A stretch of 64,000 nucleotides of DNA, taken from Octopus sinensis. Its lineage: Eukaryota. The position numbers were made by a program. Every line of letters begins with the position of its first letter. Positions within the stretch are counted from its first letter, which is position 1. The DNA lies in assembly GCF_006345805.1 (NCBI RefSeq), contig NC_043010.1:19468001-19532000 (forward strand), in the 5' to 3' direction. Below are positions 11,694 to 12,725 of this stretch, one piece after another.

Positions 11694-12676
11694 GTATATA
11701 TATATATATGTAATAGAAATATTAAAATAACTAAGTCTCTCTAAAAGAGAACAGCGGCAGCGTTCCCGGAAAATAATAGTTATCGCCATACTAATATGGC
11801 ATTCTTATAAAAATAAGAAAAAAGCTGTCCGCTTATTAGCTCCATGAGGCCATCGCCTTAAGTTAGCTATTTGATACACAAACTGTATCCATATAACCTT
11901 CGAACAAGGGAGGTCAGTCGCTCCACACTACTTGACCGGCAGCTACAGACGCGTTTCGGAGTATTGCCCCTTTTCAATGCAGCGTAGCCAGCCAGTAGGT
12001 GTCGCTTCCGACAATCTCTGTTCGATGGTTTTATTTACCTAGTTTCGGTGGAATACATCCACTTGTTTTCAATAATAGAAATATTAAAATAACTAAGTCT
12101 CTCTAAAAGAGAACAGCGGCAGCGTTCCCGGAAAATAATAGTTATCGCCATACTAATATGGCATTCTTATAAAAATAAGAAAAAAGCTGTCCGCTTATTA
12201 GCTCCATGAGGCCATCGCCTTAAGTTAGCTATTTGATACACAAACTGTATCCATATAACCTACGGACAGCTTTTTTCTTATTTTTATAAGAATGCCATAT
12301 TAGTATGGCGATAACTATTATTTTCCGGGAACGCTGCCGCTGTTCTCTTTTAGAGAGACTTAGTTATTTTAATATTTCTATTATTGAAAACAAGTGGATG
12401 TATTCCACCGAAATTAGGTAAATAAAACCATCGAACAGAGATTGTCGGAAGCGACACCTACTGGCTGGCTACGCTGCATTGAAAAGGGGCAATACTCCGA
12501 AACACGTCTGTAGCTGCCGGTCAAGTAGTGTGGAGCGACTGACCTCCCTTGTTCGAAGGTTATATGGATACAGTTTGTGTATCAAATAGCTAACTTAAGG
12601 CGATGGCCTCATGGAGCTAATAAGCGGACAGCTTTTTTCTTATTTTTATAAGAATGCCATATTAGTATGGCGATAC

Positions 12677-12725
<49 letters not shown>

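What the first reader, a model, noticed from the sequence alone, without database searches (positions are those of the whole stretch)
11711..12681. 362-nt circularly permuted monomer carrying a variant hammerhead, in tandem and inverted copies: candidate retrozyme or circular-RNA retroelement
Seen: a non-coding 362-bp unit (11711-12072) runs directly into a partial second copy (to 12261). It then flips into an inverted arm (12263-12681) that starts mid-unit, crosses the same end-to-start junction and covers about 1.15 units. Copies differ at only a few bases, and each orientation holds one type I hammerhead motif. Established: tandem monomers of a few hundred nt with type I hammerheads define metazoan non-LTR retrozymes, which give circular RNAs; Penelope-like elements carry minimal hammerheads in tandem or inverted terminal repeats. 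Inference: this is a recent insertion reverse-transcribed from a circular or multimeric 362-nt RNA with a strand switch, mobilised in trans into a (TA)n tract.
Basis: partly seen in the sequence, partly recalled or inferred. Interest (0 to 1): 0.9.

Follow-up and report, generated by a model that had tools for sequence, protein, structure and literature searches.

The report
Hammerhead-bearing 362-bp retroelement insertion
A short non-coding repeat that carries a self-cleaving-ribozyme motif sits in a TA repeat as two back-to-back arms, an arrangement that fits a known class of small RNA-derived mobile elements of animals rather than a new kind of element.

Summary
The described structure is real. 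A 362-bp ORF-less unit (11711-12072) runs into an identical partial copy (to 12261). After one filler base it continues as an inverted arm (12263-12682) that crosses the same unit junction.

Each arm holds one type I hammerhead-like motif: helix I 6 bp, helix II 4 bp, helix III 1 bp plus a palindromic tetraloop. The core carries the compensated U3-A8 variant, which is published as natural and active. Rfam finds no hammerhead. It also misses a canonical-core hammerhead-like motif elsewhere in the window. My descriptor finds only these sites in 128 kb, against 0.1 expected.

In ribozyme sense both arms have their 5' ends at the centre and their 3' ends outward. Both 3' ends follow CTATTA next to (TA)n. 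Partial tandem, inverted 5'-truncated copy and microsatellite target are the published hallmarks of Penelope-like element insertions.

Best reading: a dead-on-arrival insertion of a non-autonomous retrozyme-type element, copied from a circular or multimeric RNA by priming at both ends. This is a new member of a known kind. Genome-wide copies, expression and cleavage stayed untested.

The parts
11604..11709 (.). Left part of the (TA)n target tract.
   Evidence: TRF row 11604-11709: period 2, 53 copies.
11711..12072 (-). Full 362-bp unit (copy A). The ribozyme-sense strand is the - strand. Ribozyme-sense positions 1..362 run from 12072 down to 11711, so the outer end at 11711 is the 3' end of the left arm.
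   Evidence: Direct repeat at spacing 362. blastn and mapping. The 3' end follows CTATTA.
12073..12261 (-). Partial copy B (ribozyme-sense 174..362), the 5'-truncated inner end of the left arm. It is identical to copy A.
   Evidence: 0 mismatches in 189. D3.
12262..12262 (.). A single filler base (A) at the 5'-to-5' junction of the two arms. It lies in a stretch of imperfect similarity (CGAACA in the unit, CGGACA at the junction).
   Evidence: Direct reading of the junction against the unit.
12263..12682 (+). Inverted (right) arm, ribozyme-sense 242..362 then 1..300. It is 5'-truncated at the centre, and its 3' end lies at the (TA)n tract.
   Evidence: Inverted repeats I1 and I3. Mapping. Differences from copy A at positions 31 (C/T) and 121 (G/A), and a 1-nt deletion at 292.
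11942..11983 (-). Hammerhead-like motif of the left arm. Helix I is GCUGCA/UGUAGC. The core is UUGAAAA (U3-A8). Helix II is GGGG/CUCC with loop CAAUA. GAAA follows, then helix III ACGCGU (palindromic). Predicted cut after C at 11948.
   Evidence: Descriptor scan. Shuffles. Helices I and II appear in the MFE. The double-hammerhead cofold is -41.7 kcal/mol against 2 x -17.8.
12473..12514 (+). Hammerhead-like motif of the right arm. It is the same motif, but helix III reads ACACGU, so the palindrome is lost. Predicted cut after C at 12508.
   Evidence: Descriptor scan. Cofold does not give the extended helix III. No Rfam match.
12683..12747 (.). Right part of the (TA)n target tract. It abuts the 3' tail of a tRNA-derived SINE copy (12741-13165, - strand).
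   Evidence: TRF row 12680-12747. SINE copies.

Best explanation
This is one insertion of a small, ORF-less, hammerhead-bearing retroelement of the metazoan 'non-LTR retrozyme' type, that is, a non-autonomous companion of Penelope-like elements (PLEs).

**Shown**
- The 362-bp period.
- Two arms whose ribozyme-sense 5' ends meet at the centre and whose 3' ends abut (TA)n.
- One U3-A8 type I hammerhead-like motif per arm.
- Read-through of the predicted cleavage site in both arms.
- A strongly self-paired unit.

**Inferred**
- A source array elsewhere is transcribed, and the RNA is cut, probably by paired ('double') hammerheads through the palindromic ACGCGU.
- The monomer is ligated into a 362-nt circle, or uncut multimers persist.
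- A reverse transcriptase supplied in trans, most likely from a PLE, nicked a (TA)n tract.
- Each of the two exposed DNA 3' ends primed cDNA synthesis on the RNA at a UA-rich CUAUUA site (positions 362 and 300).
- Synthesis ran for 1.52 and 1.16 units around the circle or along the multimer.
- The two cDNA 3' ends were joined head to head by a template jump that left one extra A.

**Consequence.** Each arm holds a single ribozyme, so this locus cannot itself release a unit-length RNA. It is a dead-on-arrival copy.
For: - **Anatomy:**
- **Non-coding unit:** the longest open run is 55 aa.
- **Hammerhead-like motif:** it is found only at the two arms and at one other inverted element in 128 kb of searched strand. 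Shuffles give 0.1 relaxed sites per window, and 0 of 200 shuffles had a site with helices as long as these.
- **U3-A8 covariation:** reported in nature and active in vitro (PMC3088659 section 8). Also reported in PLE min-hammerheads (PMC4209133 text).
- **Helix sizes:** helix I 6 bp, helix II 4 bp and a 1-2 bp helix III with a palindromic loop is the stated architecture of canonical metazoan type I hammerheads. It is also that of the amphibian retrozyme ribozymes that act as dimers. Cofolding gives the double hammerhead for the ACGCGU copy.
- **Retrozyme features in PMC7229834:** tandem 150-450 bp, GC <50%, self-paired circles, and 350-390 bp in mussel. Here the unit is 362 bp with GC 41%. The circular fold is -118.9 kcal/mol, z = -6.6, with 0 of 200 shuffles as low.
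- **PLE insertion hallmarks in PMC8557442 (passages):** 5' truncation, partial tandems, an adjacent inverted 5'-truncated copy, and a microsatellite target that includes (TA)n. All four are seen here.
- **3' ends:** both follow CTATTA, which occurs only twice in the unit. The chance that two different random ends share a 6-mer is 3.5e-4.
- **Second locus:** another inverted pair carrying hammerhead-like motifs lies at 45500-45967. The same architecture therefore occurs twice in this window.
Against: - No Rfam hammerhead model matches at the gathering score, or at E<=10 on 2.4 kb or on 141 nt.
- My descriptor was written after I had seen the site.
- There is no second copy of the unit in the 64-kb window, and no eukaryotic collection could be searched. 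Repetitiveness in the genome, the key property of a mobile element, is therefore untested.
- 0 of 32 ORFs of 120 aa or more in the window match any Pfam family. No PLE reverse transcriptase is shown to exist in this genome.
- No target-site duplication can be read in (TA)n.
- The fold is strong against shuffles, but 17 of 314 real 362-nt windows of the same 64 kb fold at least as well. The lowest-energy ones lie at the 23.2-kb and 45.6-kb inverted repeats and in repetitive stretches.
- The 56-nt motif alone has z = -0.46.
- The right-arm ribozyme has lost its helix III palindrome.
- Cleavage, circular RNA and transcription are all untested.
Confidence: 0.65

Rival explanations
1. The unit is a hammerhead-bearing satellite or retrozyme repeat, but the local tandem-plus-inverted structure arose at the DNA level. 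A replication template switch or fold-back repair at microhomology (MMBIR-type) in an unstable (TA)n tract would do this. It would not be retrotransposition at this site.
For: - There is an imperfect microhomology at the central junction (CGAACA / CGGACA) with one filler base.
- Long (TA)n tracts flank the structure.
- No target-site duplication can be read.
- No other copy is in the window.
Against: - A short 1.5-unit piece still had to reach this (TA)n tract.
- Both outer ends fall after the same 6-mer, CTATTA, at different unit positions. The chance value is 3.5e-4. This looks like priming-site choice.
- The arrangement with 3' ends outward and 5' ends at the centre is the one described for PLE insertions, and it recurs at 45500-45967.
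Confidence: 0.14
2. The 362-bp unit is not an independent element. It is the terminal (pseudo-LTR) region of an autonomous Penelope-like element, seen here as a heavily 5'-truncated tandem/inverted insertion.
For: - PLE insertions are mostly 5'-truncated, tandem and inverted, and carry hammerheads in their pLTRs.
- Retrozyme consensuses of Xenopus match PLE termini (preprint 10.64898/2026.07.22.740005, Results).
Against: - The left arm runs 1.52 periods of the same 362 bp, and the right arm crosses the same junction.
- In a 3-kb element, the sequence after the 3'-to-5' junction would be the element's 5' region and ORF, not the same 362 bp again.
- The two arms end at different unit positions (362 and 300), so the ends are not fixed.
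- 0 of 32 ORFs of 120 aa or more match a Pfam family.
Confidence: 0.08
3. Assembly artefact: a chimeric or palindromic read, or a collapse in a (TA)n-rich region, created the inverted arm.
For: Complex PLE-type tandem/inverted structures and microsatellites are known to trouble assemblies (PMC8557442 passage). The arms are almost identical.
Against: - The palindrome is small and internal, and has different unique flanks on each side.
- The arms are asymmetric, at 551 and 420 nt, with different outer ends.
- The arms differ by 2 substitutions and 1 indel.
- A second, unrelated locus has the same geometry.
Confidence: 0.05
4. A foldback or MITE-like DNA transposon with short terminal inverted repeats (TAATAG ... 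CTATTA), inserted at a TA target.
For: The two outer ends are reverse complements of each other over 6 bp and sit in TA sequence. Other hairpin-type inverted repeats exist in the window, for example 23210-23539.
Against: - Terminal identity stops after 6 bp.
- The 362-bp circularly continuous period, the hammerhead-like motif and the unequal arms are not explained.
- 0 of 32 ORFs of 120 aa or more match a Pfam family, so no transposase is seen.
Confidence: 0.03

Closest known systems
Metazoan non-LTR retrozymes (Cervera & de la Pena 2020, PMC7229834; Results and Discussion read)
   Same: - Head-to-tail repeats of 150-450 bp. Mussel units are 350-390 bp; this unit is 362 bp.
- No ORF, LTR, PBS or PPT.
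- GC below 50%; here it is 41%.
- One type I hammerhead per unit.
- A highly self-paired predicted circle.
- Helix III of one base pair with a palindromic tetraloop, as in the axolotl HHR_Amex1 that works as a dimer.
   Different: - There are only 1.5 and 1.16 units here, with one ribozyme per arm, so no unit-length RNA can be released from this locus.
- The core is U3-A8 rather than C3-G8.
- The locus has an inverted arm. The main text of that paper has 0 occurrences of 'inverted', 'opposite' or 'microsatellite'.
- Expression and circularity are untested here.
Penelope-like element insertions and their min-hammerheads (PMC4209133, text read; PMC8557442, passages read)
   Same: - Partial tandem plus an adjacent inverted 5'-truncated copy.
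- 3' ends outward.
- Microsatellite target; (TA)n is reported for Naiads.
- Hammerhead on the sense strand.
- U3-A8 covariation, reported for Cercyon PLE motifs.
- Pairs of motifs 100-700 bp apart on opposite strands.
- Palindromic 15.2-16.2 and loop 3.
   Different: - No RT/GIY-YIG ORF.
- The repeat period is 362 bp, not about 3 kb.
- Helix I (6 bp) and helix II (4 bp) have the 'canonical' sizes, not the short helix I and long helix II of min-HHRs.
[quoted passage not shown]
- No 30-40 bp 'tail' could be recognised.
L1 twin priming inversions
   Same: Both DNA ends of the target prime on the RNA. This gives an inverted 5' part joined to a direct 3' part at microhomology.
   Different: - In twin priming the two segments cover adjacent, non-overlapping parts of one linear RNA, with a poly(A) end.
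- Here both arms cover more than one full unit of the same sequence and have no poly(A). This needs a circular or multimeric template.

Membership tests
Non-LTR retrozyme | Head-to-tail tandem repeats with a unit of about 150-450 bp. | tested here: met
   Period 362 bp. The left arm is 1.52 units and the right arm 1.16 units, and both cross the same junction.
Non-LTR retrozyme | One type I hammerhead ribozyme per unit. | tested here: inconclusive
   My descriptor finds one motif per unit, with a U3-A8 core, helix I 6 bp and helix II 4 bp. The chance expectation is 0.1 relaxed sites per 128 kb. No Rfam hammerhead model matches at E<=10. Rfam also misses the canonical-core hammerhead-like motif at 45847-45925.
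Non-LTR retrozyme | No ORF, LTR, PBS or PPT; GC below 50%. | tested here: met
   The longest stop-free run is 55 aa in all frames of the trimer. GC is 0.414. PBS and PPT were not searched for specifically.
Non-LTR retrozyme | Highly self-paired unit-length RNA. | tested here: met
   The circular MFE is -118.9 kcal/mol, z = -6.6, with 0 of 200 shuffles as low. As a caveat, 17 of 314 real windows fold as well.
Non-LTR retrozyme | Expressed as linear and circular unit-length RNA; self-cleavage at the ribozyme. | not testable with these tools
   No transcriptome or bench assay was available.
Non-LTR retrozyme | Multiple copies dispersed or arrayed in the genome. | not testable with these tools
   There are 0 further copies in the 64-kb window. 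There are 0 matches of a 25-mer in the prokaryote-only genome-contig collection. No eukaryotic collection was open.
Penelope-like element (autonomous) | A single ORF with a telomerase-like RT and a GIY-YIG endonuclease. | tested here: not met
   The unit has no ORF longer than 55 aa. 0 of 32 window ORFs of 120 aa or more match any Pfam family at E<=0.01.
Penelope-like element (insertion architecture) | 5'-truncated partial tandem with an adjacent inverted 5'-truncated copy; microsatellite target. | tested here: met
   In ribozyme sense the 5' ends (positions 174 and 242) meet at the centre, and the 3' ends (362 and 300) face (TA)n. The definition comes from PMC8557442.
Hammerhead ribozyme | Conserved core C3 U4 G5 A6 N7 G8 A9 ... 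G12 A13 A14, A15.1-U16.1, H17, with three helices. | tested here: inconclusive
   All core positions are present except C3-G8, which is replaced by U3-A8. That is a compensated pair reported as natural and active. G10.1-C11.1 is present, and the cleavage triplet is GUC. Activity was not tested.

The most novel reading that the evidence does not exclude
The locus would be a preserved record of how animal retrozymes move. A 362-nt circular (or uncut multimeric) hammerhead RNA is copied by rolling reverse transcription from both sides of one break in a (TA)n tract. Priming occurs by microhomology at CUAUUA sites, and the two cDNAs are joined by a template jump.

That would be direct structural evidence that Penelope-like enzymes mobilise retrozymes in an invertebrate-type genome. 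The link is so far argued from co-occurrence and pLTR similarity in vertebrates only (preprint 10.64898/2026.07.22.740005).

As a side effect, read-through transcription of the 413-bp perfect hairpin could feed small-RNA silencing of the family.
Probability: 0.3. Interest if true: 0.6.

Novelty: new member of a known kind. Interest (0 to 1): 0.4.

Why it matters
How retrozymes are mobilised is still open. The 2020 paper names PLEs only as 'a strong candidate'. The 2026 preprint asks for work on the mobilisation mechanism and covers mainly vertebrates.

A young insertion of an ORF-less, 362-bp hammerhead unit showing the PLE-specific tandem/inverted, microsatellite-targeted architecture would support that link from insertion anatomy. 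Its 3' ends at defined UA-rich sites would also point to the priming rule.

This is one locus, and all its components are already described. It is a good example and a lead for a genome-wide survey, not a new kind of element.

Tried and rejected
**Rfam.** I searched the whole window at the gathering score, 11000-13400 at E<=10 and 12420-12560 at E<=10. None gave a hammerhead. The matches listed were AT-repeat artefacts (mir-1277, Pestivirus 3'UTR and similar). As a control I searched 45480-45990 at E<=10. That also gave no hammerhead, although a CUGAUGA...GAAA motif with three helices is there. I therefore do not treat the Rfam negative as decisive.

**Second core-like pair.** UUGAAAA ... CCGAAAC at ribozyme-sense positions 1-38 was considered as a second ribozyme and rejected. 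It needs a 3-nt/1-nt internal loop between the core and helix II and has no clean helix I. It fails the descriptor.

**Snap-back model.** A single-cDNA snap-back ('strand switch') was rejected as the simplest model because the arms have different outer ends.

**Homology with the second element.** Only an 18-19 nt similarity (E 0.02-0.07) and a 9-mer were found between the 362-bp unit and the element at 45500-45967. This is not enough to call them related.

**ORFs.** All 32 stop-to-stop ORFs of 120 aa or more were scanned against Pfam, with 0 hits. Shorter ORFs and degraded fragments were not scanned.

**Organism.** It was not identified. A 19-nt SINE word found no paper. From memory the SINE resembles cephalopod SINEs, but I did not test this.

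**Literature.**
- 'hammerhead' + 'U3-A8' found only PMC4209133.
- 'hammerhead ribozyme' + 'C3U' + 'G8A' found nothing.
- 'hammerhead ribozyme' + 'cephalopod' found 4 papers, of which 2 were listed. Neither title concerns retrozymes, and I opened neither for that question.
- Lunse et al. 2017 on PLE hammerhead dimers is recalled. It was not in the listing.

**Unchecked.**
- No eukaryotic genome or repeat library (Repbase, Dfam) was available, so copy number and family identity stayed unchecked.
- Supplementary figures of PMC7229834 and PMC4209133 (ribozyme drawings, descriptors) were closed. They may show closer matches or inverted retrozyme loci.
- Complex prediction, structure prediction and the protein searches were not used, because the element is non-coding.

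Full report
**Observation**

The region was read directly and analysed with the repeat finder, TRF and blastn.

- A 362-bp unit (11711-12072) is followed head to tail by a partial copy (12073-12261, unit positions 1-189). This copy is identical to the first at 189 of 189 positions.
- After one extra base (12262), the sequence continues as the reverse complement of unit positions 121..1 (12263-12383) and then 362..63 (12384-12682).
- This inverted arm is 420 nt, or 1.16 units, and crosses the same end-to-start junction.
- It differs from copy A by two substitutions and one 1-nt deletion.
- (TA)n tracts lie on both sides (11604-11709 and 12680-12747).
- No frame of the unit is open for more than 55 codons.
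- No other copy exists in the 64-kb window.

**The hammerhead**

Rfam gives no hammerhead match at the gathering score, nor at E<=10 on 2.4 kb or on 141 nt. Reading the strand that carries GUC 12506-12508 gives this motif:

- Helix I: GCUGCA/UGUAGC, 6 bp.
- Core: UUGAAAA.
- Helix II: GGGG/CUCC, 4 bp, with loop CAAUA.
- GAAA, then helix III ACGCGU in the left-arm copy and ACACGU in the right-arm copy.
- Cleavage after C17.

The only departure from the consensus core is U3-A8 in place of C3-G8.

- Perreault et al. state that C3 and G8 pair, that they covary to U3-A8 in several natural hammerheads, and that such ribozymes are active in vitro (PMC3088659 section 8).
- Cervera and de la Pena found the same covariation in Cercyon PLE motifs (PMC4209133).
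- That paper also gives helix I 6 bp, helix II 4 bp and a 1-2 bp helix III with a small palindromic loop as the canonical metazoan type I architecture.
- The axolotl retrozyme ribozyme, with a single-pair helix III and a palindromic tetraloop, cleaves well only as a dimer (PMC7229834).

I wrote a descriptor that allows either core pair, helix I of 4 bp or more and helix II of 3 bp or more.

- Over both strands of the window it finds only the two arm copies.
- With a longer helix II allowed, it also finds two sites in a second element at 45.5 kb.
- Two hundred dinucleotide shuffles of the window gave 0.1 relaxed sites per shuffle, and none with helices as long as observed.
- The descriptor was written after I had seen the site, which inflates the significance.
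- Rfam also misses the canonical-core hammerhead-like motif at 45847-45925. Its silence is therefore weak evidence against a hammerhead.

Folding results:

- Helices I and II appear in the minimum-energy fold of the 56-nt motif and of the whole circle.
- Cofolding two ACGCGU motifs gives the classical double hammerhead, at -41.7 kcal/mol against 2 x -17.8. The ACACGU copy does not form it.

**Orientation and ends**

In ribozyme sense:

- The left arm (on the - strand) runs 174..362 and then 1..362.
- The right arm (on the + strand) runs 242..362 and then 1..300.
- Both 5' ends therefore meet at the centre, and both 3' ends face the (TA)n tract.
- Both arms read through the predicted cleavage site (125/126).
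- The left arm spans 1.52 units. A self-cleaved linear monomer cannot have been its template, so the template was a circle or an uncut multimer (inference).

Both 3' ends lie directly after CTATTA. That word occurs only twice in the unit, at positions 294 and 357. The chance that two different random ends share their preceding 6-mer is 3.5e-4, although this comparison is also post hoc. The pattern suggests priming by UA-rich microhomology with the TA target.

The central junction has one extra A within an imperfect CGAACA/CGGACA similarity, as expected for a template jump. A simple snap-back would give arms with the same outer end, which is not seen.

**Comparison with known systems**

Craig et al. 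describe PLE insertions as follows (PMC8557442, passages):

- highly 5'-truncated;
- organised in partial tandems;
- often with an inverted 5'-truncated copy immediately adjacent;
- strongly biased towards microsatellites, with (TA)n for Naiads.

Cervera and de la Pena (2014) noted pairs of min-hammerheads 100-700 bp apart on opposite strands. The present locus shows all of this with a 362-bp, ORF-less period.

The unit also fits the published definition of metazoan non-LTR retrozymes (PMC7229834):

- Size 150-450 bp, with mussel units of 350-390 bp.
- GC below 50%; here 41%.
- One type I hammerhead per unit.
- A highly self-paired RNA. The circular fold is -118.9 kcal/mol, z = -6.6 against 200 shuffles.

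As a control on real sequence, 17 of 314 windows of 362 nt from the same 64 kb fold at least as well. The lowest-energy ones lie at the 23.2-kb and 45.6-kb inverted repeats and in repetitive stretches. The unit is strongly structured but not unique in that respect.

The 2020 paper proposes PLEs as the likely mobilisers. A 2026 preprint argues the same from co-occurrence and pLTR similarity, working mainly in vertebrates, and lists the mechanism as open.

**Surroundings**

- The (TA)n tract abuts the tail of a tRNA-derived SINE copy (12741-13165, - strand). An inverted copy of the same SINE lies at 10741-11199.
- The family has at least 17 copies in the window.
- The one Rfam tRNA hit (41749-41819) directly adjoins the copy at 41316-41745, on the side where I infer its head to be.
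- None of the 32 ORFs of 120 aa or more matches a Pfam family, so no reverse transcriptase is seen nearby.
- A second inverted pair lies at 45500-45703 / 45764-45967 (99% complementary, 60-nt spacer). Each arm carries a canonical CUGAUGA...GAAA motif with a 60-nt helix II and a palindromic ACAAUUGU helix III, again with the 3' ends outward.
- Both arms of this second pair end at the same position, so it has a fixed 3' end, unlike the 362-bp unit.
- It shares only an 18-19 nt word with the unit.

**Verdict**

The best reading (confidence 0.65) is a recent, dead-on-arrival insertion of a non-autonomous, hammerhead-bearing retroelement of the retrozyme type. It was copied from a circular or multimeric RNA by priming at both ends, most likely by a PLE enzyme.

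The rivals are:

- DNA-level fold-back of a satellite fragment (0.14).
- A truncated pLTR of an autonomous PLE (0.08).
- An assembly artefact (0.05).
- A foldback DNA transposon (0.03).

The finding is a new member of a known kind. Interest is moderate (0.4), because each component is published and the decisive properties could not be tested here. Those are genome-wide copies, circular RNA and cleavage.

Not checked: any eukaryotic genome or repeat library, the closed collections metagenome contigs and viral contigs, and the papers' supplements. The one prokaryote scan found nothing.

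Noticed in passing
window 45500-45967: A second inverted pair (arms 45500-45703 and 45764-45967, 99% complementary, 60-nt spacer). Each arm carries a canonical-core hammerhead-like motif: CUGAUGA, a 60-nt helix II, GAAA and a palindromic ACAAUUGU. The predicted cuts are after 45925 (+) and 45542 (-). The 3' ends face outward, and both arms end at the same position. 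It looks like a 5'-truncated PLE-type insertion. Rfam does not detect it.
   Followed up: partly
window 12035-12072 (-) and 12384-12421 (+): A second core-like pair in the unit, UUGAAAA ... CCGAAAC(U)AGGUA, repeats the two 7-mers of the real motif. It has a 3-nt/1-nt internal loop before helix II and no clean helix I, so it fails the descriptor. One of the two substitutions between the arms (C/T, position 31) falls in its GAAAC.
   Followed up: partly
window 10741-11199 (+), 12741-13165 (-), and at least 15 more, e.g. 41316-41745: An abundant SINE family of about 430 bp, with 64-88% identity between copies. The only Rfam tRNA hit in the window (41749-41819, -) directly adjoins one copy, which suggests a tRNA-derived head. 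Two inverted copies bracket the element, and both have (TA)n at their tails.
   Followed up: partly
window 23210-23539: A hairpin-type inverted repeat (arms of 157 nt, 92% complementary, 16-nt spacer) in AT-rich flanks. It is MITE- or foldback-like and has no hammerhead motif. It has the lowest fold energy of all 362-nt windows.
   Followed up: no
window 12247-12268 and 45714-45722 / 45945-45967: The word TAAGCGGAC and the word GCTTTTTTCT(C/T)(A/G)TTT(T)ATA are adjacent in the 362-bp unit. In the 45.5-kb element they lie at the centre and at the 3' termini respectively. The similarity is weak (E 0.02-3) and may be chance or a shared terminal signal.
   Followed up: no
whole window: The microsatellite load is very high, with (TA)n, (CA)n, (CT)n and (TGTA)n arrays every few kb. 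0 of 32 ORFs of 120 aa or more have a Pfam match, so the window looks intergenic or intronic and repeat-dominated.
   Followed up: no
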